A stretch of 41,391 bases of DNA from Nanobdellota archaeon (GCA_043812855.1 JBDRLR010000076.1:1-41391), one strand, 5' to 3'; numbered from the stretch's first letter, positions 15,181 to 35,737 are shown. Made by a program: numbers and translations. The notes: generated from the letters alone by a model not told the origin.

Positions 15181-15302
15181 TACTTACTATGTAGGTACTT
15201 ACATTGTAGGATATCATGCCTTTTCCGGTCCGGAAAACTTATAAAGCGATACCTACGGTGTAAGTGGTAGTTTAGCGACAACAGATACTGACATTGTATG
15301 GT
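15181..15302. promoter_or_regulatory. four imperfect copies of the 17-bp palindrome TACTTACA-n-TGTAAGTA around the HTH1 promoter (putative operators)
   Basis: Copies: 15181-15197 TACTTACTATGTAGGTA; 15196-15212 TACTTACATTGTAGGAT; 15250-15266 TACCTACGGTGTAAGTG; 15286-15302 TACTGACATTGTATGGT. They flank TATA 15238-15246 and cover the start codon. A perfect copy lies at 26194-26214. Confidence 0.45.
15238..15246 (+). promoter_or_regulatory. TATA box for HTH1/giant-protein operon
   Basis: CTTATAAAG. The predicted TSS is near 15270, upstream of the GGTGG SD-like element and GTG 15309. Confidence 0.45.
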
Positions 15303-15308
15303 GGGTTG

Positions 15309-15539
15309 GTGAGTACGGCGAAACGCAAGGAACCAAAAGGGATCACGATAGGCGACAGCATCGAGGTGCCAAGCTCCATCTTCCGCGACCGACGCGCGTG
15401 CGTGCTCGAGAGCGTCGTGTACTATCTCAAAGAGACCAAAGGACTGACGTTCCATCAGATCGCCGTGCTGCTCAACCGGGACGACCGCACCATCTGGACC
15501 GCATACACCCGCACCGTGAAGAAGCGGAGGCGACGATGA
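15309..15539 (+). CDS. small helix-turn-helix DNA-binding protein (HTH1; sigma-70 region 4 / LuxR-like HTH)
   Basis: LESVVYYLKETKGLTFHQIAVLLNRDDRTIWTAYTRTVKKRRRR. Paralogue of 25971-26195. GTG 15309 aligns with the paralogue's N-terminus (STAKRK vs MSKKRA); TTG 15294 is an alternative start. The stop overlaps the giant gene's ATG. Confidence 0.7.
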   Translation: MSTAKRKEPKGITIGDSIEVPSSIFRDRRACVLESVVYYLKETKGLTFHQIAVLLNRDDRTIWTAYTRTVKKRRRR

Positions 15540-18500
15540 ACGAGAAGATTATCGCCGCAAGCAAAGAGATCGAGCGCCTCACGCACGAGCGAGACTCGAC
15601 CATAACCACGCTCGAAAAATACGAGCACGAGAACTATGTCGGCGTACTGACCGATGCGGAATACTTCCACCGCGTCATCGAACTGACCGGAGGCATATCC
15701 GAGCAGCAATACATCGCCGGACTGAACAAGGCGATCGGGAAGAAACAAGAAGAGCTCGAGAAGCTACGCAAGAAATACGAAGGGCATGATGAACGAAAGG
15801 CCGTCGCCGCCATCGGCGCCATGCTCTTTGTGCTGTTCGTCGTAGTCATGTGGCTGCCTTCTGGTCCCACCGGCTATGCGGTGCTCGACGCTAATACGAC
15901 AGTCAATGCGGTGCCCAACATCACGCTCGTCGATGAGGCGCGACTGAACATCAGCGACATCCTGCCTGACGTCGATCCTGCAGGAGTCACGGTCGAGATG
16001 ACTCGGATGCCACAGGTGCGGCTCGGCTACTCCGATGGCATACTCACCTTCACATCCACAGGGTTCCCTGGACAGTACACCGTCCGCCTGACCATCAGCG
16101 ATTCCGAAACGAGCATCACGACCGATTGGTTCACCATCACCGTGCTCAAAGACACCGCACCGACCATCAGCGGCGCGCCTATGCATGGCCCTGTGGAGTT
16201 CGGCAAACCCGTCACGTGGACACAGACGATCACAGCAGAAAACACGCTCTTGGAACGCATCGACAAACGCATCCCGGTCCGCCTTCCACGCGGATACGAG
16301 ACGCTGCTCATCCAAGACCAAGACACAGGAAGCAGCATTGACACCTTTGAAATCACCGACGTCACCGCCGACGCGGTGGCGCTGGACGTGCGCGATGAAG
16401 TCGGCGCAGGGGAAGAGAAGACGTACACCTTCACGTACACGACACCCGGGCCCGAGAAGGTCGAGGAAAGCATCGACCGATTCACCAAACGTGTCAGGGT
16501 GTCCTCAGTGTACAACTACAGCAATGTGACAGTGAGCGCGGACATCGGTGGCTATCCCGCCGAAGCCGTGCGAGTGTGGTGGATGAGCGACGCGGGACGC
16601 GCGCTCATGGACGCCGCGCTGATCGACCTTGACGTCGATGGGCTTGTGGATCGCGCCGAGTGGCAAGTGCCTCACTTCTCCGAGCAGGAATTCCTGGTCG
16701 AAATCACTATCCTGAATGTGCAGAGCTATCCCGCGGTCGGCGGGACGTGGACAGTACGTTTCAACACCACTGGCGTCGGTGACCTTGCGGTAAGAGTCAT
16801 CAACGGCACCAGCTGGGACGACGAGAACGACGACTTCGATTTGACATTCGCGCAGCTACAGTGCGGCGAGGACATCATCGACGCCAGCTTCATCACACTC
16901 ACCGGACAGACCAGCTACGTGCTGGTCCCCAACTACACCTGCAACTCGACCGGAGGCGAGATCAGCGGAGTCAACACGCCCGGAAAACACCACCTGGAAT
17001 TCGAATTCGGCGGGCAGAAGGCATGGGCGAACAACGATGCATCAGTCATCACCCTGCTCAGTCCCGGAAACAGGACCATCACCTCAAACCAGTACGTCAA
17101 TTTCTCCTGCTATGTCTCGGACGGAGACGGCATCGCGAACATCACCCTGTACACCAACGCGAGCGGGACATGGAAAGCCAACGAGACCGAGTATCCTTAC
17201 GGCATCAACCTGCTCGCACCGAACGGAGACTTCGAAGAAGGTCTGGGGGTCATGAACACCCGCAACGAGACGATGTGGAACTGCGTCACTGGCACATGTA
17301 CGCGCAACACGACGTCCTATGTCGAAGGATCAAGCAGCATGACCATCGCGGGGAGCAACGCATACCTGCGTCGATATTTCGACCCTCCCTTCGACGCGAC
17401 AGGAGGCGTGGCCAACACCAGCCAAATCGAAGCGGGCAAGACCTACACACTCAGCTACTGGCTGAAGACCGACCTGACCGGTGGAAGTATGAATGTCGCA
17501 TATCTTGGCGGCATCACGACTGCTGAATACGGTGTGAACCCTGCGATAGGACTCAGCATCTCAGGCAGCAGCGCCTGGACATTCTACAATATCACATTCA
17601 CCATCACCGCAGTTGGCGCGCAGCCCCAGATCAGACTTCCGTGGCCGAGCGGAACCAGCGGAGGGTATGTAATCGACGCGGTGCAATTGACCCAAGGCAC
17701 CGCGCCGCGCGCATTCACGGACGACCGCTACGGATACATCGGGATCGAGATGGACAACGGCTGCACCGTGCCAGGAGCCTGCTACACCGCGCGGACCGGG
17801 GCCAACATCACCTACACGCTCAACAACTTCACGCGGATCTCGCCGAGCGGCTCGTTCTACGACCAGGACTTCGAGCACTGCCAGGATACCAGCCGCTGCC
17901 AGATGAACTTCACCATCCAGAACGTCACGTACGACGGACAGTACCGCATGATGGTGTTTGGCCGAGACCTCAACCTCACTGCGGGCGGCATCGAATTCAG
18001 CGACGACGGAACGACGTGGAACGACTATTTTGAAGCCACAGGATACGCTCTGCGCTACCTCAAGAACATCACCATCACTGGCGGAAAATCAGACACCATG
18101 CACTTCCGCAAATACGCCGTCGACTCAGGACACCACGGGTGGCTGGACCGCATCATACTCGTACCGATAACACTGACCAACTACACGGCGAACTTCTCAA
18201 GCATCAACCTCTCTGATGGGGCGTTTGAATGGGCATGCCGACTCATCGACAACACAAGCGTCACAACGTTCGCCGCCCAGAACTACACCCTGTTCATCGG
18301 GAACGTGGCGCCGGACCAACCCATTCCCAACATCACAGGGATCGGAGGGACGAACAACACCAACGAAGACATCAACTGCTCAGCGATCATCACTGATCCC
18401 AACGCGAACACGACCGATGTGACGGTGCGGTGGTACAACAACTCTGAGTTCGTGCTGGTGGAATATTTCAATAACAGCTACGTGAACGGGACGCTGTTCA

Positions 18501-21500
18501 ACGCGACGCTCGGAGCAGGGAACACGACCAGAGGAGATACATGGACCTGCGAGATGCGGCTCTACGATGGGAACCTGCATAGCGGATGGGGTAACAGCAG
18601 CACTATCGCTATCGCCAACAGCGCACCCGACACGCAGACGCCCAACATCAGCAGCGTCGATGGCAGCAACATGAGCTCCGCCGATCTGAACTGCTCCTCC
18701 ATCATCGGAGACCTCGACGGTGACACCCTGGACGTCTCCGTGCGCTGGTACAACAACTCGGAGTTCGCGCTTGTCGACTATTACAACAACAGCTATGTGA
18801 ATGGGACGCTGTTCAACGCGACGCTCGGAGCAGGGAACACCTCAGGCAAAGACCGATGGAACTGCGAGATAAGGACCGGCGACGGAACGGAAACGAGCGC
18901 ATGGGCAAACTCGAGCGCGATCAGCATCATTGATACGACACCACCAATCATCACCTTCGTGTCGCCCAGCCCCGGCAACGCGTCGACCGTCTACGCAAGA
19001 TGGACCTCCCTGAGCGCCACCGTCGTCGACGCGTCCCGGACGGCCGCATGGTTCGACTGGAACCGATCACTGCTCGGGTACTGGAGCATGGAATACTCCA
19101 ATGCCACAGGTATCTTGGACAACTCTACGCACGACGTCACGGCCCAATTCAAGAACGGCCTGAACGCGAGCGGACTGCACACAGGACTGTTCGGAACGGC
19201 GCTGCGCTTCGACGGGACAAACGATTATCTGAACCTGACCTCTCTCATATCGGCACGCAATGTCACCTACGGCGGATGGTTCTACTTCGACGACTTCAGC
19301 TGTCCAGGAGACTACTGCGTGCCTATGCAGCAGGCGACCAGCGGCGACGTAGGATACGAGATGTACACCGATACGACAGGCAAACTCTGGTGCTACGACG
19401 GAGCATTGGCCTCTCCGACCGCAGGCGTCACGATATCCGCAGGAACCTGGCACCATATCATGTGCTGGCACAACAGCACACATTTCGGACTGTACGTGAA
19501 CGGGACGCTACAAGGCGTCACGCGCGCGAGCACGGCCAACCCTGTAGCAGAGGACCTCGTCGTCGGCGGCGGAGTGGACCAGAATAGTTATTGGTTCAAC
19601 GGCAGCGCCGATGAGATCATCGTGTTCAACCGCGCGCTGGGAGGCGACGAGATCCTGACGCTCTTCAACAACTCCGCGAATGCCCTTGCGCACAACTTTA
19701 CCAGTCTTGATGCGGGGACATACAACTACACTGCGTACGCGATGGATGACTCAGGAAACCTGAAGATCACCGACGTGCGCAATGTCGTGGTCGACCCGGA
19801 CTGTTCTGTGGACGGAACAGAACTCATCATCACCACATACAAGACGTGCAGCAACAGCACGATGCGTCCGACAAACCTGACGATCAATTCAGGCGGCACA
19901 CTTATGCTCGACGGCGTGAACCTGACCGTGACGGGGAACACGACCGTGAAGAGCGGAGGCGTGCTCGACGTTCGCAACTCGCACGACTCGGTATGGTACA
20001 ACGGACCCGTCACCGTAACAGGACTGAACAACTATTCAGGTGTCACGGTGCATATGAACGGCACGTGCGACGGATGCGTCTGGATGAACGTCACCGGCAC
20101 CATCGACATGACTGACACGACATTCACCAACGGAGACGACGCGGCCAGCCAATACCTCTTCCGGGCGCAGCCAGGCGCCATCGTCAACATTCGGGGCTCG
20201 CTCATAGAGCAGTCAGGGTATGCTGACACGACGTACGGACGTGGACCGCTCATCCAGTCAGACTACGCCAACATCACGAACACCACATTCGGCGACAACT
20301 TCTACGGCCTGGTGCTCGACGGAGCAATGCATGCCCACATACACAACAGCTCGCTGTCTGCCGGAACAGGGGGCGTCAGCATCTATCTGCGCTACGCCAA
20401 CTGGACGACCATCAACACGACTGACATCCAGACCACATCGATGGCGCTTAACTGCTACCAGTCCGGAAACGTGAGCGTCATGAACAGCACCATGACCGCA
20501 ACGCCAGGCACTGATTTTCTCCAGCAGGTCTACATGAACGACTGCGACGACTGGAACATCACCGACACCAACATCACCATGCATGATAACCCTGCGGTCC
20601 AGACTGACAACGTGTATCTAGAGAACAGCGACCGGAGCATCTGGAGCCGAGTCAACATCACGCATGAGATCACGATCGACGCGTCGTCAGGGATCATGCT
20701 CCAAACATCCCACGACGCACTTTTCCTGAGCAGCTACGTGGAAGGCATGACATGGAACCCCATCAGCGCCGTAGACAGCGAAGGCTTCACCGCGGTCGAC
20801 ACGAAGATAGTGACTGGCGATGGGGGCGACAGCGCCATCTTCGTGAGCAACTCCGCGCTCACCTTCCTGAACGTGACGCACTCCGCGAACACCGTCATCA
20901 CCGCATCCGGCGGCGTCATCATCAACAAGCACCGACTGCGCTTCGCCGTGAAAGACGACCAAGGCGACGCTGTCGACAGCGTCAGCGTCACGCTCTACAA
21001 CAAGACAGCGCAGAGCGAATACGGATTGACGAGCGGAAGCGACGGGAACACCACGTGGAACAACGCAACCCAATACATCCAGACAGGTACCACCGCGTTC
21101 ACGTACTACAGCAACTACAGCGCAAACGCCACGCACGCAGGGTATACGACCGCAAGCACGACATTCAACCACACCACCAGCGGGACGAGAAACATCACCA
21201 TCAGCGCCACCCCTGCCTTGAGCAGCGGACCCAACATCACGAATGACCCTAAGCTCTTCAACGACATCGCGTGCAAAGCGGTGGTGCGCGACGCGGACAG
21301 CTCGACCCTGTACGTCAACTACTCCTGGTACAAGAACGGAGCCAAGCAGATCAGCGGACAACAGGCAGCGACCAACAACACCCTCGCGACCGTCACCCTG
21401 ACGGCAAACTACACCATCAACGGAGAGTCTTGGCAATGCGAGATCACACCCTACGACACTTTCGGCTATGGCACGAGCACGAACAGCAGCGCAGTGACGG

Positions 21501-26195: not shown

Positions 26196-26214
26196 TACTT
26201 ACACTGTAAGTATC
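26194..26214. promoter_or_regulatory. perfect 21-bp palindrome GATACTTACA-C-TGTAAGTATC (putative HTH operator and/or terminator hairpin)
   Basis: It starts inside the HTH2 stop codon and shares its core with the four sites at 15181-15302. Confidence 0.5.
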
Positions 26215-26322: not shown

Positions 26323-26568
26323 TTGAGAGACCAAAGTGACGTATCGAAGCGGACCATCGTTGTCCTGGTCGTCCTGGTCACTGTGCTCACCATTCTTGGT
26401 TCCCTGAGCGTGCTCAAAACCCTCGAGGACTTCAAACAGACGCAGAGCAGGTCAATGACTGAAGAAGGATCAGCACAACAGGTCGGACACGTCAGCATCC
26501 GCGTCATCGATGAGACTGAAGGAACGGACACCGCGACCGGCCGAGTACTGCTCTACGTAGGTGACTAA
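26323..26568 (+). CDS. 81-aa N-terminally anchored small protein (hypothetical)
   Basis: TTG 26323 is the only in-frame start. Basic N-terminus plus hydrophobic helix (SKRTIVVLVVLVTVLTILGSL), then a short beta-rich tail (GHVSIRVIDE..GRVLLYVGD). AGGTGA near its 3' end serves the next gene. Confidence 0.5.
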   Translation: MRDQSDVSKRTIVVLVVLVTVLTILGSLSVLKTLEDFKQTQSRSMTEEGSAQQVGHVSIRVIDETEGTDTATGRVLLYVGD

Positions 26569-26569: not shown

Positions 26570-27236
26570 ATGGACATGTCGAATAGAACCCTTTCCGCGC
26601 TCCTCGTCGCGGCCATCGTACTCACTCTTGGGGCAAGCATCATCAGCCTTCAACAGCTCGGAAACGTGCTCGGTCCCACCGGATTCGCCACGTCAAGCAC
26701 AGGCATGGTGAACCTGACCATCCTCAGCCAGACCGACATCACACTCACTGGAGACAATATCGACTTCGGATCAGGAGTCGTCAACAGTTCATCTGCATGC
26801 AACAACGCCACCCTGCACTCCAACGGCAGCGGCGTGAACACCGACGCATGCTGGGTCAACCAATCACTCACACCCAACAGCGCCATCCCTGCAACCGAGG
26901 CCAAATTCATCCTCAACAACTCAGGAAATGTCAACATCTCAATCACAATGGACAGCGTCAAGAACAACGCGACCAACTTCATGGGGAACAGCACCGTCAT
27001 CCGACGCGCTCTACCAGTACACGGTCAACCACAACGGAAGCGGACAGCCCTGCCAGACCACGCTCGCGACGGGATGGAACAACTTCTCCGCGAGCGCGAC
27101 CATGGGCGTGTGCGGCGAACTCTTCTGGGAAGACGGTAGGGACGCCGTCGCCGTGGCCATCCTGGTCCGCATCCCTGAAGACGTCGAACGAGGATACAAA
27201 AGCGACAATCTGACATTCACGTCGGCGCAGGCATAG
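26570..27236 (+). pseudogene. beta-rich secreted small subunit, copy 1, interrupted by a +1 frameshift
   Basis: ORFs 26561-27139 and 26928-27236 together align end-to-end with 28921-29598. There is one extra C at 27001/27002 (ATCCGACGC versus ATCGACGC in the paralogue). ATG 26570 follows AGGTGA. Confidence 0.7.
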
Positions 27237-28444: not shown

Positions 28445-28881
28445 TGAAGAGACGAGACGTGATCGTCCTGCTGGTGCTGGTCGCCGTGCTCGCATATGGC
28501 CTGACCAGCATGTTCTATCTGTGGCTCGGTCCCGCCGGACAGCATCGGATCCTCGGAGGCGAGACGGTCAACGTGACGCTCAGCATCACACCCTACCGTC
28601 AGATGAACTTCAACGCCAACACCGACGGACTCCACTTCGACGGAGTCCCCCAAGGGAGCTCCGCGCGCAAATACATCACCCTGACCAACATCCGAACCGT
28701 GCCAGTCAACGTCGAAGTCGCGATCACCGGAAACATCACGGCGTTCATGATCGCATACCCCTCATCATTCTCATTGGATCCTGGGACGTCCGCAAACATC
28801 ACAGTCTCAGTCGATGTCCCCTCCGAAGCGGAAGCGGCAAGCTACGATGGAAGTCTCATCATCGTCTACCGTCACACATAA
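28441..28881 (+). CDS. N-terminally anchored single Ig-domain protein (PapD/MSP/ASH-like pattern)
   Basis: ATG overlaps the upstream stop (ATGA), with AGGAGG at 28433-28438. TM VIVLLVLVAVLAYGL. Then FDGVPQGSSARKYITLTNIRTVPVNVEV..FSLDPGTSANITVSVDVP..YDGSLIIVY. Confidence 0.75.
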   Translation: MMKRRDVIVLLVLVAVLAYGLTSMFYLWLGPAGQHRILGGETVNVTLSITPYRQMNFNANTDGLHFDGVPQGSSARKYITLTNIRTVPVNVEVAITGNITAFMIAYPSSFSLDPGTSANITVSVDVPSEAEAASYDGSLIIVYRHT

Positions 28882-28920: not shown

Positions 28921-29598
28921 ATGGTCAGCAACCGTGCGCTCTCGCTTCTCATCGTCGCTGCGGTCGTCATCTCTGTGGGCGGGCAGATTTGGAGCGTCAA
29001 CCAGATACAATCCGCACGAATCCTGACACCAGGCCTCCCCACAGGCTACGCGGTCGCCGCGACAGGCATGGTGAACCTGACCATCCTCAGCCAGACCGAC
29101 ATCACACTCTCCGGCGACGTCATCGACTTCGGCACCGGCGTCGTCAACAGCTCGTCAGGATGCAACAACGCCACCCTGCACTCCAACGGCACCGGCGTCA
29201 ACACCGACGCATGCTGGGTCAACCAATCACTCACCCCCAACAGCGCTATCCCTGCGACACAAGCCAAGTTCATACTGAACAACTCAGGCAACGTCAACAT
29301 CTCCATCACGCTCGATAGCATCAAGAACAACGCCACCAACTTCCTCGGCAACAGCACCATCATCGACGCATTCTACCAGTACACTGTCAACCAGAACGGA
29401 AGCGGACAGCCCTGCCAGACCACGCTCGCGACGGGATGGAACAACTTCTCCGCAAGCAGTACGATGAGCGTGTGCGGCGAACTCTTCTGGGAAGACGGCA
29501 AAGACGCGGTCAACGTCGCCATCCTGGTCCGCATCCCCGAAGACGTCGAACGCGGATACAAGAACGACAACCTGACCTTCACGTCAGCCCAGGCATAG
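28921..29598 (+). CDS. beta-rich secreted small subunit, copy 2 (intact)
   Basis: N-terminal MVSNRALSLLIVAAVVISVGG. Then GMVNLTILSQTDITLSGDVIDFGTG..FILNNSGNVNISITLD..ELFWEDGKDAVNVAILVRIPEDVERGYKNDNLTF. Long stretches are nucleotide-identical to copy 1. It resembles the giant protein's C-terminal domain. Confidence 0.8.
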   Translation: MVSNRALSLLIVAAVVISVGGQIWSVNQIQSARILTPGLPTGYAVAATGMVNLTILSQTDITLSGDVIDFGTGVVNSSSGCNNATLHSNGTGVNTDACWVNQSLTPNSAIPATQAKFILNNSGNVNISITLDSIKNNATNFLGNSTIIDAFYQYTVNQNGSGQPCQTTLATGWNNFSASSTMSVCGELFWEDGKDAVNVAILVRIPEDVERGYKNDNLTFTSAQA

Positions 29599-29643: not shown

Positions 29644-31587
29644 ATGAAAAATGGCGGAATGCTCGTCGTGACACTTCTTCTCCTTGGCTTCGCCATCACC
29701 AGCAACGCCTACATCGTCATCAAGACCAAACAGATCACAGGCGCGGCGGTCGGAGAAGTGAGACTGTGCATCAACAACAAACCCGCAATGAGCAACCCTT
29801 GCTCGACATCCATGACGCAAGGCATCTACTTCAGCTGCAACGTCAACGGAAGCGACTACGACAACGATACGCTGACGTACAGCTCCACCTTCCTTTCCAG
29901 CCCGACCGTCTTCACCATCCGTAGCAACGGCACCATCGCCGTGACGCCGACCAACGCCGATGTGGGCAACCACACCGCCAACATCACCCTCGCCGACGAC
30001 GTCGGATGCCCAGACAACTCAGCATGGGAACTGTACCGCTTCGACGTCTCGAACGTCAACGACCCGCCCATCCTCACCCAGACTATCCCCGACCAAAGCC
30101 TCACCGAAGGAGTGAGGACCAGCGTCTTCTTCCTCACCGACCACTTCACCGACCCCGACGGAGACGCTATGACATTCACCGCATCCATCACCAGCGCATA
30201 CGAAATCACGATCCTCGCCAGCGGAGAAGTCCAGATGCTCGTGGAAGACTGCCAGGACACCACAGAATACGTCATCTTCACCGCAACCGACCCCTACAAC
30301 GCCACGACCGACAGCAACGTCGTCGAACTCACCTGCACCCAAGCAGGAAGCGGTGGAGGCGGTGGAGGCGGCGGAGGTGGAGGTGGAGGCGGAGGCAGCG
30401 GAGCCATCTCTGAGTGCGAATCAGAACTCTACTGCAACGCATGGTCGAACTGCAGCATCTACGCAACACAACAGCGACGATGCTACGACATCGGCGGATG
30501 CAAGGACGACATCTTCCTGCGACGCGCATGCCTCTACGCGGACACCTGCACCAACGGAGTCTGGGACACGGGAGAGCTTGGCGTCGACTGCGGCGGCCCC
30601 TGCGACGCGTGCGGCACCTGTAGCGACGGCATCCGCAACCAAGGAGAGCTTGGCGTCGACTGCGGCGGCTCCTGCGACGCGTGCGCCACCTGCTACGACG
30701 GGACGCAGAACCAAGACGAAGAAGGCGTCGACTGCGGCGGCTCCTGCGCCGCATGCGGGACGTGCGGCGACGGCATCAAGAACAACGACGAGACATCGAT
30801 CGACTGCGGCGGCTCCTGCGCGCCCTGCACAGAATTCCAGACACCAGGCATATTCGCGCTGCAATCCATCGTCGTACGGCTGCTCATGATCATGTCCATC
30901 ATCCTCATCCTGCTCGCGCTGCTCGCCCTCTTCGCCCGCAAGTGGCTACGCAAGACCCTGCAGAAGCTCGGCCTGATCAAAGACCACGTCAAATCCATCC
31001 TGCTCACCCCTGAGAAGAAACAGCAATTCCTCGAGAGGATCTATACGGTGGAGTCCGCCATCCCCTCCGTGTCGGGCAAGGACAACCAGGAAGCCGTGCT
31101 CTCCCTTCTCATAGACCTCTTCTCCGAGATGCTCAAGACACCTCGCGGCGTCACGCAAGCGGAACTGGACCGCATACTCCACACCCTGCCTCTGCAGGAA
31201 GACACGCGAAAACTGCTCATCCGCTTCGCCGCCCTCATCCACCTGCTCGAAGCCTCCAGGCTCAACGCCGACGAATGGGAAGTGAGGTCATGGACCGAGC
31301 AAGCCCGAACGCTTGTCGCCTGCGTGGCTCACTGCACATCAGATGACTTCAAACGCACCACCAGTCACGTGGAGATCGAAGCGAAAGGAGAGGCGCCGGT
31401 GCAATTCGCCCGACGCGTGGTCGATATGCTCATCGCCCTGCAGTTCCGCGAATACAGCCTTGCCGCAAAGAAATACCTGGTCCTGCAAGGCAAGTACGAC
31501 ACCCTGAGCGAACCGCGAAAGACCAGGGCTTACGCGGACCTCTATCGCTCGTTCACCATGATCGAGTATCTGCAGAAGTACGAATAG
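29644..31587 (+). CDS. single-pass membrane protein: cadherin-like ectodomains, Gly15 hinge, 4 Cys-rich repeats, TM, ~215-aa helical cytoplasmic domain
   Basis: Signal peptide MLVVTLLLLGFAITSNA. Cadherin-like modules with a VNDPPIL linker. A 15-residue Gly run. Four repeats of the form ..GE.GVDCGG.C.AC.TC. TM IVVRLLMIMSIILILLALLALFA. The C-terminal helical domain resembles 35734-36351. Confidence 0.85.
   Translation: MKNGGMLVVTLLLLGFAITSNAYIVIKTKQITGAAVGEVRLCINNKPAMSNPCSTSMTQGIYFSCNVNGSDYDNDTLTYSSTFLSSPTVFTIRSNGTIAVTPTNADVGNHTANITLADDVGCPDNSAWELYRFDVSNVNDPPILTQTIPDQSLTEGVRTSVFFLTDHFTDPDGDAMTFTASITSAYEITILASGEVQMLVEDCQDTTEYVIFTATDPYNATTDSNVVELTCTQAGSGGGGGGGGGGGGGGGSGAISECESELYCNAWSNCSIYATQQRRCYDIGGCKDDIFLRRACLYADTCTNGVWDTGELGVDCGGPCDACGTCSDGIRNQGELGVDCGGSCDACATCYDGTQNQDEEGVDCGGSCAACGTCGDGIKNNDETSIDCGGSCAPCTEFQTPGIFALQSIVVRLLMIMSIILILLALLALFARKWLRKTLQKLGLIKDHVKSILLTPEKKQQFLERIYTVESAIPSVSGKDNQEAVLSLLIDLFSEMLKTPRGVTQAELDRILHTLPLQEDTRKLLIRFAALIHLLEASRLNADEWEVRSWTEQARTLVACVAHCTSDDFKRTTSHVEIEAKGEAPVQFARRVVDMLIALQFREYSLAAKKYLVLQGKYDTLSEPRKTRAYADLYRSFTMIEYLQKYE
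30352..30396 (+). repeat. (GGN)15 simple repeat encoding a poly-glycine hinge
   Basis: ggt gga ggc ggt gga ggc ggc gga ggt gga ggt gga ggc gga ggc. A second (GGN)9 tract lies at 34985-35011 in the 1232-aa protein. Confidence 0.9.
30547..30834 (+). repeat. 4 x 72-nt tandem repeat encoding 24-aa Cys-rich modules
   Basis: GACTGCGGCGG recurs at 30586, 30658, 30730 and 30802, an exact 72-nt period. Consensus: C-x-(D/N)G-x-x-(N/D)-x-x-E-x-(G/S)(V/I)DCGG-x-C-x-x-C. Confidence 0.9.
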
Positions 31588-31627
31588 TCCAATTCTGGAG
31601 TTATAGAGTCTGTGCCCTAGGAAAACA

Positions 31628-31692: not shown

Positions 31693-31708
31693 CTTGGGTG
31701 TTTTGACG

Positions 31709-31828
31709 ATGGGAAACATCAACATCGAAATCCCCGACGACCTCCACCAGAAGCTCAAGCTAGGCTCTGTCCTTCGCGACCGCAGCCTCAAAGACCACAT
31801 CATCGACCTTCTCGATCCCCATGGTTAA
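31709..31828 (+). CDS. 39-aa ribbon-helix-helix (CopG/Arc-like) protein, copy A
   Basis: MGNINIEIPDDLHQKLKLGSVLRDRSLKDHIIDLLDPHG follows a strand-helix-turn-helix pattern. Not in the ORF track (under 60 aa). GGGTG lies 8 nt upstream. The stop overlaps the ATG of copy B. Confidence 0.6.
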   Translation: MGNINIEIPDDLHQKLKLGSVLRDRSLKDHIIDLLDPHG

Positions 31829-31958
31829 CATCAACATCCAGATCCCTGACGATCTGCACAAACGGCTGAAACTGCAAGCAGTCGAAGAGAACAAGACGCT
31901 CAAAGCGCATATCATAGCACTACTCCAACATGGCACACATCAACATCCAGATCCCTGA
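31821..31958 (+). CDS. 45-aa ribbon-helix-helix protein, copy B
   Basis: MVNINIQIPDDLHKRLKLQAVEENKTLKAHIIALLQHGTHQHPDP. Its ATG lies within ..CCCCATGGTTAA of copy A. It shares an identical 34-mer with copy C. Confidence 0.6.
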   Translation: MVNINIQIPDDLHKRLKLQAVEENKTLKAHIIALLQHGTHQHPDP

Positions 31959-32052
31959 CGATCTGCACAAGAAACTCAAGCTCGAAGCGGTCAAGGCAGG
32001 CCGCACGCTCAAAGAACACATTATCACGATACTCGAACATGGCCAGAACTAG
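31930..32052 (+). CDS. 40-aa ribbon-helix-helix protein, copy C
   Basis: MAHINIQIPDDLHKKLKLEAVKAGRTLKEHIITILEHGQN. Its 3' end (CATGGCCAGAACTAG) contains the ATG (32039) of the 1232-aa surface protein. Confidence 0.6.
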   Translation: MAHINIQIPDDLHKKLKLEAVKAGRTLKEHIITILEHGQN

Positions 32053-35000
32053 GACGATCGGATACTGCATCGGCGCACTGTCAGCGGCAGCGCTGGTCCT
32101 GTTGCTGGCGGGCATCATCACCGCAATCTCAGTCTCCAGCGGTCCATCCATCACCCCCTCCAATGCCGCCACCAACGACTCACTCAACTGCTCATGGATA
32201 CCGCTCGGCGGAGGGACACTGCTTGCCAACGTCACGTGGTACAACGGCACTTCAGCCTACTCGACCGAGAACGACATCGCATGCGTCAACAACACGCTCT
32301 GCCAGACACCGCTTGGAGTGCTGGGATCCGCGACGATGCGCGACGAGAAGTGGAACTACACCGTCCTCGTGCACAACGGGACCGAGAATGTGACAACGAG
32401 CGTAAGCGTGAACATCTCCAACGCAGACCCGACGATCGAGCCATTCTACAACGTGACGGTCCCTGAAGATAGAGCCTACTCAGTCAGGATCAACGCCACC
32501 GACCCAGAATCAGACACCCTGACCTGGTTCTCCAACGACAACAACTACACCAGCGATCTGTTCACCATCGACCAGGACACGGGATGGATCAACTTCACGC
32601 CCACGCAGAGCCAAGTCGCCAACCACACCATGGACATCATCGTCATCGACGGACACGGAGGAAGCGACACCTTCCGCGTCATCTACACCGTGCAGGAGAT
32701 CAACGATAGACCATACTTCGTGCCCGCCCTCACCGACCAAGCCGCCGTGCAAGACGCCCAATTCACCTACGCCATCATCGGAAACGACGAGGAGAACGAC
32801 ACCATCAACTTCTCACTCTACGCACCGAGCCTGCCCGACCTGCAGCTCAACTGGTCGAACGGCACCATCAGCATCCTGACATTCGGCAGCAACGGAGGCG
32901 CACCACAATACGCAGACGGAGGGACACACACCGTCAACATCACCGTCTACGACGTCGCCAACACCTCGCGCAACCAGTCGCAGAACATCACGCTCACCAT
33001 CACGACCATCAACCAGGATCCCGTCCTTGCGACCATGCCCAACCGCACCGGGACACAAGGCAACAGCTTCTCCGCGTCCATCAACGCCACCGACGTGGAT
33101 GCCGGCGACACGCTCAGTTTCGCGTCCGCAGTCAACTGCAGCCTCCCGAACCCATGGACTGTGACGACGACGAGCAGCGCGGCCAGCGCAGGAGAGGCAT
33201 GGATCAACGTCACGCTCAACAACACCCACGTCGTATGCCCCTGGGTCAACATCACGGTGAGCGACGGCAGCGTCACCGTGTGGCAGCTCGTCTATCTCAA
33301 CATCACCAACACCAACGACGCGCCCAGCATCCACAACATCAGCGTCTACACGGGCAACAACGCGGGGAACGACCTGCGCAACCTCTCAAGCGGCGTGGGA
33401 GCGTCATTCGTGTACCTCGTCAACGCCACCGACCCTGATACGTACACGTACGAGAACGAGACGCTCACATATAGTTCCAACGACAGCCTGTTCGAGATCG
33501 GCGGCGCGACCGGCATCATGTCGCTCGCGCTCAACACCAGCCACGTCGGAAACCGCACCGTCAACATCACCGTCACCGACGACGGCGGGCTGTCGACGAG
33601 CGCCGCACTGAACATCAGCATCGCCAACAACACGGTCCCTGTGTTCGAGAACATCACGCTCGTCAGCTGCGCCGAAGGCATATCGTGCACTGTGTACATC
33701 AACGCGGCCGACCCTGACGACGGAGAGAACCTGACATTCACGAGCAACGACACGACACGATTCCCCATCAATTACCACAACACCACCGCGGTACGGTTCA
33801 ACAAGACATTCGTCCAGGACGCCGTCGGCAACTACAGCATCCTGCTGAACGTCTCCGACATGTTCAACGCCACGGACAACGTCAGCTTCCGCCTTGAAGT
33901 CAACAACACCAACGACGCCCCCTTCTTCGACGAGAACTTCGACAATGCCAGCGACACGATAGCATTCCCCATCATCGTCATCGCGCGCGCATTCACGTAC
34001 TGGATCAACGCTACCGACTACGACATCCCATTGGGCGACCAACTGAACATCAGCTACGTCGTGCTGGACTCGGTCAACGCGAGCCTGCTCAACAGCACCC
34101 AGACCAGCAACAACACCCTGCTGGTGCATGCCACGCCCTCCATCGCGGACATCGGCAACTACAGCATCAACATCACCGTCAACGACACCGCAGGACTGTA
34201 CGCGTGGCAAGTCATCAACTTCACCGTCTACAACAGCAGCCTCCCCCCCAACATCACACAGATCAGACCCTACTACAACACCACCCTCGCCGTGACGCTC
34301 AACTCCACCGTCGACACGTCGTTCTACACGACGACCAACGTGAGCGTCAACGTGTCCGAGAACAGCAGCACACTCTTCAACATCACAGCCATAGACCCCG
34401 ACGGATCCACGGACAACCTGACCATCCTGTGGTACCACGAAGGAATCCTCAACAAGAGCGTGCCATACACGTCGAACACGGGCATGCGGGTCGACTGGGG
34501 ATTCTTCACCAACGGGACACGCAACGTGACCGTCGTCGTGCAAGACGCATACTTCAGCAGCACATCCTGGCACTGGGAAGTGGCGGTCGCGAACATCAAT
34601 CGTGCGCCCTTGCTCATCACCAACCTGCAGAACTTCACCAGCAGCAGCGCCATCAACAGCACCACGACGTTCAACAACTACTTCGGATACTACGACACCC
34701 AACAGCACTTCATCGACCCCGATGACGACCTGAACAGCAACAACCAGACCAGAGACAGCGTATCTGACCCCAACGAGAAGTTCACATTGACTGTGACCGC
34801 GACGACGTGCAGCGTCGCCACCCTCTCCATCACCGGACCCAATCTGACGATCACGCCATCATCGATCGGCACCTGCATCGTCAACTTCACCGCGACCGAC
34901 CAGGACGGCGCCAGCCTCATCTCGAACGCGGTGCGCCTGGAAGTCAGCAGCACGGCGACCGTGGTGACGACCACCGTGTCCTCGGGCGGAGGCGGAGGAG

Positions 35001-35737
35001 GAGGGGGCGGATCAAGCGACACCACGCGCACCCAACTGCTGCCAGTTGACAAGCCAAAAGACGTGCCAAAGCCACTTGAGATCATCGTCCCGGGAAGGGT
35101 CGTGATCTACCAGAACAAGGCCATGCGCATCCCCATCGTCCTGACGAACACATGGAACACGACCATCAGCGGCATCCAGCTCTCAGCCGTCACCAACAAC
35201 ACCCTCGTGGACATGAACTTCAGCACCGACTTCTATCCGACCTTGGAGCCGGGACAGCAGGAGATCTCGGAGCTGACTGTCTCGAACTACCGCGAATACG
35301 GCCCCTACGAGATCCAAATCATCGCCAACGTCACCGACCCGGCATTCACTGACACCGGCACGATCTACATCAACTCGCTGGAAGAGAAGAGCGAGGGAGA
35401 AGACATCAACACCAGGCTCCAGTTCGCACGCGACCTCCTCACGACCAACGTCGAATGCCAAGAGCTCAACGAGCTGCTCGACAAAGCAGACGTGGAACGG
35501 GCGAAGCGCAACTACGACACAGCCATCAACATCGTCGATTCAGTCGTGAACGGATGCAAGTACCTTATCAGCACCACCCAGAACGAGCCGGACAACCAGC
35601 AACCCCTGACCTTCGCGCTCTTCTCGTACGTGATCCCTGGGAATATCGTGCTCATCGCCATGGGCGTCATCGGACTATTGATCTTCGTCGCCCTGATCAT
35701 GCTCATCCTGATGCAGCGCAGAACAAAAGAGGATTAG
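32039..35737 (+). CDS. 1232-aa cadherin-repeat surface protein with C-terminal membrane anchor
   Basis: Signal/anchor MARTRTIGYCIGALSAAALVLLLAGIITAI. N-terminal WY-x-NG Ig-like module shared with the giant protein. About nine ~100-aa cadherin-like repeats with linkers INDRPYF, INQDPVL, TNDAPSI, NNTVPVF, TNDAPFF, INRAPLL. Gly9 hinge. CARDB-like module. Helical stalk. TM IVLIAMGVIGLLIFVALIMLILM followed by RRTKED. Dense N-x-S/T sequons. Confidence 0.9.
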   Translation: MARTRTIGYCIGALSAAALVLLLAGIITAISVSSGPSITPSNAATNDSLNCSWIPLGGGTLLANVTWYNGTSAYSTENDIACVNNTLCQTPLGVLGSATMRDEKWNYTVLVHNGTENVTTSVSVNISNADPTIEPFYNVTVPEDRAYSVRINATDPESDTLTWFSNDNNYTSDLFTIDQDTGWINFTPTQSQVANHTMDIIVIDGHGGSDTFRVIYTVQEINDRPYFVPALTDQAAVQDAQFTYAIIGNDEENDTINFSLYAPSLPDLQLNWSNGTISILTFGSNGGAPQYADGGTHTVNITVYDVANTSRNQSQNITLTITTINQDPVLATMPNRTGTQGNSFSASINATDVDAGDTLSFASAVNCSLPNPWTVTTTSSAASAGEAWINVTLNNTHVVCPWVNITVSDGSVTVWQLVYLNITNTNDAPSIHNISVYTGNNAGNDLRNLSSGVGASFVYLVNATDPDTYTYENETLTYSSNDSLFEIGGATGIMSLALNTSHVGNRTVNITVTDDGGLSTSAALNISIANNTVPVFENITLVSCAEGISCTVYINAADPDDGENLTFTSNDTTRFPINYHNTTAVRFNKTFVQDAVGNYSILLNVSDMFNATDNVSFRLEVNNTNDAPFFDENFDNASDTIAFPIIVIARAFTYWINATDYDIPLGDQLNISYVVLDSVNASLLNSTQTSNNTLLVHATPSIADIGNYSINITVNDTAGLYAWQVINFTVYNSSLPPNITQIRPYYNTTLAVTLNSTVDTSFYTTTNVSVNVSENSSTLFNITAIDPDGSTDNLTILWYHEGILNKSVPYTSNTGMRVDWGFFTNGTRNVTVVVQDAYFSSTSWHWEVAVANINRAPLLITNLQNFTSSSAINSTTTFNNYFGYYDTQQHFIDPDDDLNSNNQTRDSVSDPNEKFTLTVTATTCSVATLSITGPNLTITPSSIGTCIVNFTATDQDGASLISNAVRLEVSSTATVVTTTVSSGGGGGGGGGSSDTTRTQLLPVDKPKDVPKPLEIIVPGRVVIYQNKAMRIPIVLTNTWNTTISGIQLSAVTNNTLVDMNFSTDFYPTLEPGQQEISELTVSNYREYGPYEIQIIANVTDPAFTDTGTIYINSLEEKSEGEDINTRLQFARDLLTTNVECQELNELLDKADVERAKRNYDTAINIVDSVVNGCKYLISTTQNEPDNQQPLTFALFSYVIPGNIVLIAMGVIGLLIFVALIMLILMQRRTKED

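What the first reader, a model, noticed from the sequence alone, without database searches (positions are those of the whole stretch)
15181..35737. 20-kb cell-surface island: two giant adhesin-like proteins bracket a duplicated small-subunit module, with tiny DNA-binding proteins heading the operons
Every product in this span is either secreted or membrane-anchored, or is a DNA-binding protein under 80 aa. The gene order is HTH1, 3020-aa protein, multi-Ig anchor, HTH2, then small anchored protein, subunit (frameshifted), multi-Ig anchor, Ig-domain anchor, then subunit, then Cys-repeat receptor-like protein, then RHH x3 and the 1232-aa cadherin protein. Both giant proteins share an L-x-C..WY-x-NG..W-x-C..DG Ig-like module. 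No enzyme, ATPase or known secretion or pilus gene is visible. If this builds a surface fibre or adhesin complex, it would use machinery not yet described for archaea.
Basis: partly seen in the sequence, partly recalled or inferred. Interest (0 to 1): 0.8.

Follow-up and report, generated by a model that had tools for sequence, protein, structure and literature searches.

The report
Conserved archaeal surface-adhesin docking cassette
This stretch of a Nanoarchaeota (Woesearchaeota-type) genome carries an unannotated four-gene cassette for membrane-tethered Ig-fold proteins, conserved in dozens of related genomes, that most likely holds heavily glycosylated giant adhesins on the cell surface, much as WxL clusters do in Gram-positive bacteria.

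Summary
The described genes are real and in the stated order. The island is not a chance grouping. Its core is a four-gene cassette: a small ~75-aa anchored protein, a ~215-aa subunit, a ~395-aa three-Ig membrane anchor and a ~145-aa one-Ig membrane protein. All four genes occur together in 41 of 56 loci from Woesearchaeota/Nanoarchaeota MAGs. Most incomplete loci are cut by contig ends.

The subunit family has 737 clusters at 50% identity. It has no Pfam or NCBIfam model, and every source name seen is "hypothetical protein". The mature subunit domain recurs at the extreme C-terminus of large adhesins, including the 3020-aa protein here. Each such adhesin gene is followed by an anchor paralogue from a separate clade.

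This layout mirrors the WxL/WxLIP clusters of Firmicutes: a stand-alone domain, a large protein ending in the same domain, and an Ig-fold transmembrane partner. 19 of 46 anchors hit Pfam WxLIP_HBD. The subunit itself has no detectable WxL homology.

My best reading is a Sec-exported, ATPase-independent adhesin-docking complex held together by β-strand complementation. A polymerising donor-strand fibre and a variant type IV pilin system remain open. The HTH genes have a candidate palindromic operator. The RHH×3–cadherin part occurs in full in only one relative.

The parts
15181..15266 (.). Three copies of a palindromic motif (TACTTACA-N-TGTAAGTA) around a TATA-like box at 15238. Candidate operator of the HTH proteins and promoter of operon 1.
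   Evidence: 4 matches in the window against 0.02 expected, all in two intergenic regions. TATA-like CTTATAAA at 15238.
15294..15539 (+). HTH1, an 81-aa helix-turn-helix protein (TTG start is uncertain). Its stop overlaps the giant's ATG by 4 nt.
   Evidence: Sigma70_r4_2 E 4.8e-4, below the curated cut-off. (paralogue of HTH2). (ATGA overlap).
15536..24598 (+). 3020-aa giant adhesin. Layout: N-terminal ~88-aa charged segment, TM at aa 88-106, PTGYA motif, about six Ig-like WY-x-NG modules, LamG (1226-1373), NosD/beta-helix (2144-2357), and a C-terminal subunit-like docking domain (last ~155 aa). Carries 147 N-glycosylation sequons.
   Evidence: (subunit HMM positions 43-208 of 210 match the extreme C-terminus, E 1.7e-18).
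24595..25974 (+). Anchor type 2 (459 aa): signal peptide, Ig-like domains, C-terminal TM. It belongs to the clade of anchors that follow large adhesins.
   Evidence: (a clade of 9 anchors, all downstream of a large protein with a C-terminal subunit-like domain).
25971..26195 (+). HTH2, a 74-aa paralogue of HTH1 and the last gene of operon 1 (4-nt overlap with the anchor).
26194..26214 (.). Perfect 10+10 palindrome GATACTTACAcTGTAAGTATC, followed by a T-run. Candidate HTH operator and operon boundary upstream of the cassette.
26323..26568 (+). Small anchored protein (81 aa). It has an N-terminal D-V-S-K-R-T motif plus a TM helix. Its short outside tail ends in two alternating-hydrophobic strands (GHVSIRVI, GRVLLYV).
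   Evidence: the G-x-V-x-L-x-I motif is present in 44 of 46 family members against 3.1 expected.
26570..27236 (+). Subunit copy A, interrupted by a 1-nt insertion at 27001/27002. It is either a pseudogene or an assembly error.
27242..28444 (+). Anchor type 1 (400 aa): signal peptide, three beta-sandwich domains (about 36-144, 151-250, 254-354) and a C-terminal TM (371-399).
   Evidence: AF2 pLDDT 85.9. (WxLIP_HBD/CARDB-like middle domain across the family)..
28441..28881 (+). One-Ig membrane protein (146 aa): N-terminal TM signal-anchor plus one ASH/PapD-like beta-sandwich. Its start overlaps the anchor's stop by 4 nt.
28921..29598 (+). Subunit copy B (225 aa, intact). Layout: N-terminal motif plus TM helix (aa 4-31), flexible linker, T-G-Y-A, strand GMVNLTI, then a beta-sandwich with 4 Cys and 12 sequons. 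It has its own TATA-like box at 28891.
29644..31587 (+). 647-aa type I membrane protein. Layout: signal plus ITGAA motif, Big_9/cadherin-like Ig region, Gly15 linker, four [VI]DCGGxCxxC repeats, TM (408-426), and a ~220-aa cytoplasmic helical domain of an unannotated family. It recurs downstream of the cassette.
   Evidence: (homologues in 11 further loci).
31709..32052 (+). Three overlapping tandem RHH genes (39, 45 and 40 aa), with a TATA-like box at 31628 and direct repeats at 31671-31694 upstream.
   Evidence: (RHH_10 E 3.6e-5, below the cut-off).
32039..35737 (+). 1232-aa cadherin/Big_9-repeat type I membrane protein with 80 sequons. Its N-terminal module is shared with the giant, and it has a C-terminal TM. 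A 50%-identical orthologue sits in the same position in L001.
35734..36372 (-). 212-aa soluble paralogue of the cytoplasmic domain of the 647-aa protein, convergent with the cadherin gene. The arrangement is conserved in L001.
   Evidence: HMM E 2.4e-55. (no Pfam family).

Best explanation
The span encodes a lineage-wide Woesearchaeota/Nanoarchaeota cell-surface module that displays adhesins.

Shown:
- Four single-pass membrane or secreted Ig-fold proteins are encoded as one tight operon: small, subunit, anchor and one-Ig.
- The mature subunit domain is also the C-terminal domain of large multi-domain adhesins.
- Each such adhesin gene is followed by its own anchor paralogue.
- Displayed parts (subunit, giant, cadherin protein) carry 5-6.5 N-glycosylation sequons per 100 aa. 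Scaffold parts (anchors, one-Ig protein) carry 0.2-2.1.

Inferred:
- All parts are exported by Sec.
- The anchor, the one-Ig protein and the small protein stay in the membrane and form a scaffold.
- The subunit-type beta-sandwich is a docking domain that the scaffold binds non-covalently. Binding probably occurs by insertion of an alternating-hydrophobic G-x-V-x-L-x-I strand into the sandwich. The small protein carries two such strands, and the subunit and the one-Ig protein each carry one ahead of their domain.
- Giant adhesins are thereby held on the cell without any ATPase, sortase or usher.
- The conserved T-G-x-A motif after the N-terminal helix of the subunit, the giant and other cluster proteins fits the -3/-1 rule for signal peptidase I. 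It is the likely point at which these proteins are released from their N-terminal helix.
- The HTH proteins regulate the operons through the palindrome found at both promoters.

In design this is the archaeal counterpart of the WxL/WxLIP (Csc) surface complexes of Firmicutes.
For: Synteny and operon structure:
- All four genes are present in 41 of 56 loci. Most incomplete loci end at a contig boundary. Median gaps are 13, 38 and -4 nt. Two loci keep the set in permuted order.
- No other gene family occurs in more than 22 loci, and no ATPase or protease is conserved next to the cassette.

Family size and annotation:
- The subunit family has 737 representative clusters at E <= 1e-3, almost all 205-240 aa.

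Docking-domain logic:
- A C-terminal subunit-like domain occurs in 10 large proteins (345-3020 aa), most at the extreme C-terminus.
- Adhesin-paired anchors form their own clade of 9.

Fold relationships:
- 19 of 46 anchors hit WxLIP_HBD (best E 6.6e-8) and 17 hit CARDB.
- The E. faecium WxLIP structure 9i1y_A is among the anchor's Foldseek hits (E 9e-8).
- Subunit, one-Ig protein and anchor domain 1 are related by hhalign.

Motifs:
- The strand motif occurs in 44 of 46 small proteins against 3.1 expected.
- TG.A follows an N-terminal TM in 43 of 234 proteins, against 0.015 expected per protein. These include families that are not homologous to each other. It occurs in 98 of 142 subunits from the unbiased search.
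- Sequon densities contrast between displayed and scaffold parts.
- The palindrome occurs 4 times, only at the two promoters, against 0.02 expected.

Precedent:
[quoted passage not shown] AlphaFold2 predicts that a WxLIP strand completes the WxL sandwich (PMC10599100).
Against: - No protein-protein contact was computed or measured.
- The subunit shows no sequence similarity to the WxL domain: no Pfam hit in 80 members.
- The anchor's structural matches are generic tandem Ig proteins, and WxLIP is only rank 50.
- The window's own anchor scores only 14.2 bits against WxLIP_HBD, with a cut-off of 28.9.
- Numbers of subunit genes and anchors per locus are not one-to-one: 1-3 subunits per anchor.
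- The strongly conserved cytoplasm-side motif [DE]-[IV]-S-N-[KR]-T on the subunit and small protein is not explained by simple Sec export. It points to a specific recognition step that the model leaves open.
- Cleavage at TG.A would lie 15-25 residues past the helix, which is unusually far for signal peptidase I.
Confidence: 0.45

Rival explanations
1. A donor-strand-complementation fibre. After removal of its N-terminal helix at TG.A, the subunit polymerises head to tail by donating its N-terminal G-x-V-N-L-T-I strand to the next subunit. The giant sits at the tip through its C-terminal subunit-like domain. The small protein stays in the membrane and donates a strand to the basal subunit as the anchor. 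The three-Ig anchor and the one-Ig protein act as membrane-tethered chaperones or an assembly platform. No ATP is needed, as in chaperone-usher pili, TasA fibres and Sulfolobus threads.
For: - The top Foldseek hits of the subunit model are chaperone-usher pilins: CsuA/B 7zl4_B (E 8.5e-3, prob 0.90), FimA, FimG and CsuE.
- The small protein is essentially a TM helix plus two donor-strand-like motifs.
- A tip-adhesin-like architecture exists: a large protein ending in a subunit domain.
- Subunit genes occur in 1-3 copies per locus and are heavily sequon-rich, as archaeal filaments are.
- The one-Ig protein hits PapD-like/ASH models.
- There is an archaeal precedent for Sec export, signal peptidase I cleavage and donor-strand assembly without a known machine (threads).
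Against: - All Foldseek matches have E > 1e-3 and TM < 0.5.
- The giant's C-terminal domain includes the equivalent of the N-terminal strand, so it need not accept one.
- The AF2 monomer places residues 51-60 confidently in cis. AF2 may also do this for true pilins (my own knowledge).
- No usher-like or pore protein is conserved.
Confidence: 0.25
2. A variant type IV pilus. The small protein, the subunit and perhaps the one-Ig protein are pilins with a divergent class III signal, cut on the cytoplasmic face after [KR]-T by a prepilin-type peptidase. A PilB/PilC-type machine encoded elsewhere assembles them through their N-terminal helices. The small protein would be a short major or minor pilin.
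For: - These proteins have a tadpole design: a short charged leader (median 7 residues), a hydrophobic helix and an Ig-like domain.
- The conserved motif sits exactly where prepilin peptidases cut.
- The same motif is shared by two different proteins of one operon, as with major and minor pilins.
- The window's subunit B (N-R-A-L-S-L-L) fits the FlaFind-type pattern. The pattern is quoted from memory of Szabo et al. 2007.
- Archaeal pilin operons often lack the ATPase (my own knowledge).
Against: - The residue before the hydrophobic core is T in 82, S in 12, A in 9 and G in 3 of 142 unbiased family members. Only 13 of 142 fit the class III pattern.
- No archaeal pilin or flagellin Pfam model hits any of 80 members.
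- A variable, low-confidence 15-25-residue linker separates the helix from the domain.
- No PilB/PilC/A24 peptidase was found among gene families recurring in the 56 loci.
- Three-Ig type I membrane proteins are not known parts of archaeal type IV pilus loci (my own knowledge).
Confidence: 0.15
3. A trans-membrane sensing or contact-signalling complex rather than a mere adhesin holder. The Ig-fold ectodomains detect a host-cell surface. Information passes through the single-pass helices to the cytoplasmic domain of the 647-aa protein, its soluble paralogue, and the HTH and RHH regulators.
For: - A conserved ~220-aa cytoplasmic domain sits on the recurrent downstream membrane protein, with a soluble paralogue next door.
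- The giant has an N-terminal cytoplasmic segment.
- Local regulators come with a dedicated operator.
- TM helices of the small protein and the subunit carry a conserved S-x-x-G-T motif, suggesting helix packing.
Against: - The cytoplasmic domain has no known signalling family.
- The downstream protein is present in only 12 of 56 loci and the HTH genes in 7 of 56.
- The four core proteins have almost no cytoplasmic residues.
Confidence: 0.1

Closest known systems
WxL / WxLIP (Csc) cell-surface clusters of Lactobacillales and Bacillales (PMC10599100; PMC1534035)
   Same: - A stand-alone ~200-aa domain protein.
- One or more large adhesins ending in the same domain.
- A signal-peptide / Ig-domains / C-terminal-TM partner protein. 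The anchors here hit its DUF3324/WxLIP_HBD model in 19 of 46 cases.
- A very small anchored protein. In the WxL case this is the small LPXTG protein CscD, which I cite from memory of Siezen et al. 2006 (the paper was listed but not read).
- No enzyme or ATPase in the cluster.
- Predicted strand insertion that completes a beta-sandwich.
   Different: - The docking domain shows no WxL motifs and no Pfam WxL hit.
- There is no peptidoglycan to bind.
- Anchoring is by TM helices instead of LPXTG or cell-wall binding.
- The anchor has three Ig domains, not two.
- There is an extra one-Ig TM protein.
- The subunit and the small protein carry their own conserved N-terminal motif and helix.
- The host is an archaeon.
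Chaperone-usher pili, especially archaic Csu pili (7zl4, 6fq0, 6fjy)
   Same: - Ig-like subunit preceded by an alternating-hydrophobic N-terminal strand.
- A tip adhesin that ends in a subunit-type domain.
- PapD/ASH-like Ig proteins encoded alongside.
- ATP-independent assembly.
- These are the best, though weak, structural hits of the subunit model.
   Different: - No outer membrane and no usher.
- The putative chaperones are membrane-anchored.
- Structural similarity is below significance (E 8.5e-3, TM < 0.5).
- No sequence similarity.
Archaeal threads of Sulfolobus (Saci_0406) and TasA-like bundling pili
   Same: - Archaeal, Sec-exported and heavily N-glycosylated beta-sandwich subunits.
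- In these systems the N-terminal strand is donated to a neighbour.
- A small accessory protein supplies a strand as cap or nucleator.
- The assembly machine is unknown and no ATPase is linked.
   Different: - No sequence match in the PDB.
- No thread or TasA entry among the top 50 fold hits.
- Different accompanying genes.
- Polymerisation is not shown here.
Archaeal type IV pilins and archaellins
   Same: - Short leader, N-terminal hydrophobic helix and Ig-like globular domain.
- Several such proteins in one operon.
- Heavy glycosylation.
   Different: - The family consensus has T, not G/A, before the hydrophobic core.
- A flexible linker lies between the helix and the domain.
- No pilin Pfam hit.
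- No linked ATPase, platform or peptidase.

Membership tests
WxL cluster (WxL proteins + WxLIP) | Docking domain is a WxL domain (160-190 aa with two Trp-x-Leu motifs, Pfam WxL) | tested here: not met
   No WxL hit among 80 subunit-family members at E <= 0.01 or in the window proteins. The conserved residues of the family are F-G-x-G, N-x-G, four Cys and P, not W-x-L.
WxL cluster (WxL proteins + WxLIP) | Partner protein with signal peptide, DUF916 (PGBD), DUF3324 (HBD) and a C-terminal TM helix | tested here: inconclusive
   The overall topology is met. WxLIP_HBD is hit by 19 of 46 anchors (best E 6.6e-8), but CARDB is hit by 17. The window anchor scores only 14.2 bits against a cut-off of 28.9. 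WxLIP_PGBD is hit by only 2 of 46. The structure match to WxLIP 9i1y_A is rank 50 among generic Ig hits.
WxL cluster (WxL proteins + WxLIP) | A small protein made only of the domain, plus a large protein carrying the same domain at its C-terminus, encoded next to the partner | tested here: met
   The subunit HMM matches the extreme C-terminus of the 3020-aa protein and of most of the nine other large proteins it hits. Each is next to an anchor.
Chaperone-usher pilus | Outer-membrane usher and a periplasmic two-domain PapD-type chaperone | tested here: not met
   No usher-like or other recurrent large membrane protein is present in the 56 loci. The Ig proteins present are TM-anchored. PapD-like Pfam hits are weak: E 1.9e-3, 3 of 41 members.
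Chaperone-usher pilus | Pilin fold, an incomplete Ig completed by a donor strand | tested here: inconclusive
   CsuA/B, FimA and FimG are the top Foldseek hits, but with E >= 8.5e-3 and TM 0.3-0.48. The groove could not be inspected because no multimer prediction is available.
Archaeal type IV pilin (class III signal peptide) | Leader ending [KR]-[GA], directly followed by the hydrophobic helix (FlaFind-type pattern) | tested here: not met
   13 of 142 unbiased family members fit. The residue is T in 82. Window subunit B fits. Subunit A and the small protein do not.
Archaeal type IV pilin (class III signal peptide) | Dependence on an A24 prepilin peptidase and a PilB/PilC-type machine | not testable with these tools
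   None is encoded in the window or recurs in the loci. The rest of the genomes could not be read.
Archaeal thread / TasA-like donor-strand filaments | Homology or fold match to Saci_0406 or TasA/AbpA | tested here: not met
   A profile search of PDB sequences found only a spurious hit at E 0.029. No such entry is among the top 50 fold matches.
Ribbon-helix-helix (CopG/FitA-like) regulators | RHH Pfam model above the curated cut-off | tested here: inconclusive
   RHH_10 scores 24.4 bits against a cut-off of 27 (E 3.6e-5). FitA-like RHH has E 3.1e-4. The three copies and the L001 and L049 copies are clearly homologous to each other.
Sigma-70 region 4 / HTH_23-type helix-turn-helix | HTH Pfam model above the curated cut-off | tested here: inconclusive
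   Sigma70_r4_2 scores 20.2 and 16.2 bits against a cut-off of 25.7. DNA binding is supported indirectly by the promoter-specific palindrome.

The most novel reading that the evidence does not exclude
The cassette builds a new class of archaeal surface filament. A Sec-exported, glycosylated beta-sandwich subunit polymerises by donor-strand complementation. A 75-aa strand-only protein anchors it in the membrane. Giant adhesins carrying the subunit domain form the tip. Membrane-tethered Ig-fold chaperones replace the bacterial chaperone and usher. This would be the host-attachment organelle of Woesearchaeota.
Probability: 0.2. Interest if true: 0.85.

Novelty: new variant of a known kind. Interest (0 to 1): 0.62.

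Why it matters
Woesearchaeota/Nanoarchaeota are abundant, mostly uncultured, small-genome archaea thought to live attached to other cells. How they attach is unknown.

This finding defines a widespread protein family that has no database model: 737 clusters at 50% identity, and "hypothetical protein" wherever a source name was seen. It also defines a four-gene cassette that is the best candidate so far for the device that holds their giant glycosylated adhesins on the surface.

Three things become directly testable:
- the docking domain and its partners;
- two candidate processing motifs, ISNKT and TGxA;
- a candidate operator.

The finding also suggests that the design of "shared docking domain plus Ig-fold membrane partner", known from WxL clusters of Firmicutes, arose or spread across domains of life.

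Tried and rejected
Searches that failed or gave little:
- The search for related loci with the broad subunit alignments A2 and A3 failed because no stretch was conserved enough. It worked only with a subset sharing [DE]ISNKTLA. The 51 loci are therefore biased towards that motif. Statistics on the motif were taken from the unbiased HMMER search instead.
- The word-indexed homologue search missed the subunit family entirely and found only the protein itself and its paralogue.
- The same search run with the anchor profile returned only the window's own two anchors, so that search was wasted.
A 6-sequence alignment was used instead.
- The first HMM iteration script timed out.

Ideas considered and rejected:
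- Horizontally acquired island at the tRNA-Asn. GC content (0.53-0.62) and skews match the flanks, which are housekeeping genes.
- The MoxR-DUF58-VWA operon as the missing ATPase. It does not recur next to the cassette in relatives.
- The ABC transporter, regulator and 445-aa multi-Ig neighbours. They occur in only 8-9 loci of one subclade.
- A conserved antisense ORF family found in 22 loci. It is the shadow of the conserved subunit and small-protein genes on the opposite strand.

Literature searches found no description of this cassette in DPANN or Woesearchaeota papers.

Full report
**Source and setting.** The window is a contig of an NCBI MAG named "Nanoarchaeota archaeon" (locus tags ABIH41_029xx). 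The flanks are housekeeping genes: SurA-like PPIase, Toprim protein, NMD3, PRPP synthase-like, a Hel308-type helicase C-terminal half, thymidylate kinase. GC content and skews of the span match the flanks. A tRNA-Asn lies at 14996-15068 on the minus strand, and a LAGLIDADG ORF lies just upstream. Nothing indicates a foreign island.

**Check of the observation.**
- HTH1 and HTH2 are paralogues (34% identity, E 2e-17).
- The two anchors are paralogues (23% identity, E 5e-19).
- The two subunit copies are 88% identical per aligned DNA column. Their mature parts are nearly identical and their N-terminal signal regions have diverged.
- Copy A carries one extra C at 27001/27002. Removing it restores a 221-aa subunit.
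- Between 31709 and 32052 a ~110-nt unit is triplicated and encodes three overlapping RHH proteins of 39-45 aa.
- The Ig-like module shared by the giants is real. The giant has about six copies. The 1232-aa protein has one clear copy at aa 36-148 and a weak second. The copy in the 1232-aa protein lacks the second Cys.
- Topologies are as described.
- Inside the span, Pfam finds only LamG and NosD/beta-helix in the giant, Big_9/He_PIG/cadherin-like repeats in the two other large proteins, weak HTH and RHH hits, and ASH/PapD-like hits in the 146-aa protein.
- NCBIfam adds weak "choice-of-anchor D" and tandem-95-repeat hits.
- A MoxR-DUF58-BatA/VWA-DUF212 operon starts at 36514. It does not recur beside the cassette in relatives.

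**Operon structure.**
- HTH1/giant, giant/anchor459 and anchor459/HTH2 overlap by ATGA. So do anchor400 and the 146-aa gene.
- TATA-like boxes precede HTH1 (15238), subunit B (28891), the 647-aa gene (29614), the RHH array (31628) and the minus-strand gene (36378).
- The palindrome TACTTACA-N-TGTAAGTA occurs four times in the window. Three copies flank the promoter of HTH1 (15181-15266). One perfect copy lies at 26194-26214, between HTH2 and the small-protein gene. Chance expectation is 0.02.
- This makes the HTH proteins credible local regulators.

**Relatives and synteny.**
- The word-indexed search found nothing for the subunit beyond its own paralogue.
- The exhaustive HMMER search found 737 representative clusters at E <= 1e-3 (133 at 1e-10). 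Almost all are 205-240 aa and match end to end.
- No Pfam or NCBIfam model covers the family, and there is no PDB sequence relative.
- The ten members looked up carry either no name or "hypothetical protein".
- The anchor search gave four homologues. Two of their contigs already showed the same neighbours.
- L001, another Nanoarchaeota MAG, has anchor, 142-aa Ig protein, subunit, Cys-repeat protein, three RHH genes, a 1244-aa cadherin protein and a convergent cytoplasmic-domain gene. The order matches the window, at 42-50% identity.
- A genome scan with a subunit alignment returned 51 loci. All come from MAGs or SAGs named Woesearchaeota, Nanoarchaeota or "archaeon", plus about a dozen TPA bins labelled "uncultured Methanosarcinales".
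- The "Methanosarcinales" loci have cassette proteins and neighbours that are near-identical to those of Woesearchaeota-labelled loci. The label is probably wrong.
- Iterated HMMs on six-frame ORFs show the cassette small (~75 aa) - subunit (~215 aa, 1-3 copies) - anchor (~395 aa) - one-Ig protein (~145 aa), all on one strand.
- The cassette is complete in 41 of 56 loci. Most incomplete cases stop at a contig end. Median intergenic gaps are 13, 38 and -4 nt.
- Two loci (L046, L047) keep the same four genes in a different order.
- No other gene family occurs in more than 22 loci. The 22-locus family is the antisense shadow of the cassette.

**Accessory parts.**
- The subunit HMM (positions ~40-208 of 210, that is the mature domain without signal and helix) matches large proteins of 345-3020 aa in ten cases, most at the extreme C-terminus. 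These include the 3020-aa protein here.
- Such large proteins are followed by an anchor gene. Those anchors form a separate clade of nine, including the window's 459-aa anchor.
- A family defined by the TM plus ~220-aa cytoplasmic domain of the 647-aa protein follows the cassette in 11 further loci.
- A soluble paralogue of that domain is encoded convergently at 35734-36372 here and at the same place in L001. The domain has no Pfam family.
- HTH genes occur in 7 of the 56 loci (window included). RHH arrays occur only in the window, L001 and L049.
- The "20-kb island" is thus a lineage-specific elaboration of a smaller, widely conserved core.

**Anatomy of the core proteins.**
- *Subunit:* The unbiased family consensus starts M-x-[DE]-[IV]-S-N-[KR]-T-L-A. 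A hydrophobic helix follows, then a variable linker, a conserved T-G-x-A, a G-x-V-N-L-T-I strand and a beta-sandwich. The sandwich has I-D-F-G-x-G, N-D-G-N, usually four Cys and a median of nine sequons.
- *Subunit model:* The AF2 model (pLDDT 85.9) shows helix 4-31, a low-confidence linker and an eight-strand beta domain. Foldseek against the PDB gives nothing at E <= 1e-3. The top weak hits are chaperone-usher pilins.
- *Small protein:* It has a closely similar N-terminal motif and helix, and a conserved S-x-x-G-T in the helix. Its ~45-residue tail contains two G-x-V-x-L-x-I motifs about 19 residues apart (44 of 46 members against 3.1 expected).
- *Anchor model:* The AF2 model (pLDDT 85.9) shows a signal peptide, three beta-sandwich domains and a C-terminal TM helix.
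- *Anchor family matches:* The middle domain hits WxLIP_HBD in 19 of 46 members and CARDB in 17 of 46. Foldseek hits are generic tandem-Ig proteins, with E. faecium WxLIP at rank 50.
- *One-Ig protein:* This is an N-terminal TM helix plus one ASH/PapD-like sandwich.
- *Profile-profile comparison:* Subunit versus one-Ig protein gives probability 89% (E 2e-6). Anchor domain 1 versus one-Ig protein gives 95.8% (E 8e-9).
- *Sequon density:* It separates displayed parts (subunit 5.3, giant 4.9, cadherin protein 6.5 per 100 aa) from scaffold parts (anchors 0.2-0.8, one-Ig protein 2.1).

**A shared motif.** TG.A within 45 residues after an N-terminal TM segment occurs in 43 of 234 such ORFs in the loci, against 0.015 expected per protein. 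It appears in the subunits, in the Cys-repeat family (ITGAA/MTGKA) and in an unrelated ~900-aa family (SITGFA). The giant has PTGYA eight residues after its TM helix. G at -3 and A at -1 fit the signal peptidase I rule (my own knowledge). The small proteins lack the motif (44 of 46).

**Interpretation.**
- The layout matches the published description of WxL clusters: a stand-alone domain protein, a large adhesin ending in the same domain, an Ig-fold signal-peptide/TM partner and a very small anchored protein.
- In those clusters AlphaFold2 predicts that a WxLIP strand completes the WxL sandwich (PMC10599100).
- I therefore favour a Sec-dependent, ATPase-independent docking complex. The membrane scaffold consists of the anchor, the one-Ig protein and the small protein. 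It binds the subunit-type domain by beta-strand complementation and so displays giant glycosylated adhesins.
- The gene-level facts are shown. Binding, strand insertion and cleavage at TG.A are inferred.
- Membership in the WxL family is not claimed. The docking domain fails the WxL test and the anchor evidence is inconclusive.

**Rivals.**
1. *Donor-strand fibre, as in chaperone-usher pili or Sulfolobus threads.* The strand-only small protein, the tip-adhesin-like giants and the weak pilin fold hits favour it. The lack of significant fold similarity and of any usher-like gene count against it.
2. *Variant type IV pilus.* The tadpole design and the conserved motif on the cytoplasmic face favour it. 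Against it: only 13 of 142 members fit the class III pattern, there is no pilin Pfam hit, the linker is flexible, and no machinery is linked.
3. *Contact-sensing complex working through the conserved cytoplasmic domain.* This is possible as an added function, but that domain is present in a minority of loci.

**Novelty and limits.**
- No paper found describes the cassette.
- The kind of system (shared docking domain plus Ig-fold membrane partner) is known from bacteria. The components here, their membrane topology, their two motifs and their archaeal host are new.
- No multimer prediction, no coordinates of the models and no access to the rest of the genomes were available.
- The 51 genome loci were retrieved with a motif-biased pattern.
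- The frameshift in subunit A cannot be told from an assembly error.

Noticed in passing
window 15181-15266 and 26194-26214: The palindrome TACTTACA-N-TGTAAGTA is found only at the two promoters next to the HTH genes: 4 matches against 0.02 expected. It is a candidate operator. The copy at 26194-26214 is a perfect 10+10 palindrome followed by a T-run.
   Followed up: partly
window 35734-36372 (-): An unlisted 212-aa gene encodes a soluble paralogue of the cytoplasmic domain of the 647-aa Cys-repeat protein (HMM E 2.4e-55). The same convergent arrangement occurs in L001 (10213-11232, minus strand). The domain has no Pfam family.
   Followed up: partly
window giant aa ~110 (PTGYA), 647-aa protein aa ~32 (ITGAA), subunits aa ~41-44; loci L007, L010, L012, L021, L027, L034 (SITGFA in ~900-aa proteins): A T-G-x-A motif lies 10-45 residues after an N-terminal TM helix in several surface-protein families of these clusters that are not homologous to each other (43 of 234 ORFs against ~0.015 expected each). 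It may be a lineage-typical signal-peptidase or sorting site.
   Followed up: partly
window 36514-39805: A MoxR AAA+ ATPase, DUF58, BatA/VWA membrane protein and DUF212 (divergent PAP2) operon lies directly downstream. It is not conserved beside the cassette in relatives.
   Followed up: partly
window 12589-14142 (-), 14242-14907 (+), 14996-15068 (-): A Hel308-type helicase ORF contains only the C-terminal half (Helicase_C, archaeal domain 4, HHH), and no DEAD-domain ORF lies upstream. Next to it are a free-standing LAGLIDADG ORF and tRNA-Asn. This may be a split gene of the kind known in Nanoarchaeota, or a disrupted gene.
   Followed up: no
window 27001-27002: A single extra C is the only defect in subunit copy A. 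The rest of the gene is intact and ~90% identical to copy B in the mature part, while the signal regions differ. This suggests recent duplication or gene conversion, followed by a very recent frameshift or an assembly error.
   Followed up: partly
window 31633-31694: Direct repeats (CTTAGCGAAC-like, 3-4 copies) lie between the TATA-like box at 31628 and the first RHH gene. They are possible RHH binding sites.
   Followed up: no
loci L006, L010, L012, L015, L019, L021, L024-L026, L033, L038, L040, L043, L053: TPA bins titled "uncultured Methanosarcinales archaeon" carry cassette proteins and neighbours that are near-identical to those of Woesearchaeota/Nanoarchaeota MAGs. The taxonomic label is probably wrong.
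   Followed up: partly
L019:8882-10204: A 440-aa subunit whose N-terminal and C-terminal halves match the subunit HMM, with a ~180-aa insertion in the middle of the sandwich. The docking domain tolerates a large insert.
   Followed up: no
loci L013, L023, L026, L029, L031, L033, L036, L042 downstream of the cassette: One subclade has a conserved neighbour set: a ~160-aa regulator, an ABC ATPase, a 445-aa multi-Ig protein with a C-terminal TM, and FtsX/MacB-type permeases. Two divergently oriented ~230-aa membrane proteins lie in between.
   Followed up: no
loci L007-L010, L012, L021, L027, L034, L043 between the one-Ig gene and the Cys-repeat-family gene: A conserved ~187-aa cytoplasmic protein with no Pfam family occurs in nine loci of one subclade. 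It is absent from the window.
   Followed up: no
window 29644-31587 (aa 236-252) and 32039-35737 (aa ~1000): Runs of 8-15 glycines separate the Ig/cadherin region from the membrane-proximal part in both large type I proteins. The 647-aa protein has four [VI]DCGGxCxxC repeats, and its L001 homologue also has four.
   Followed up: partly
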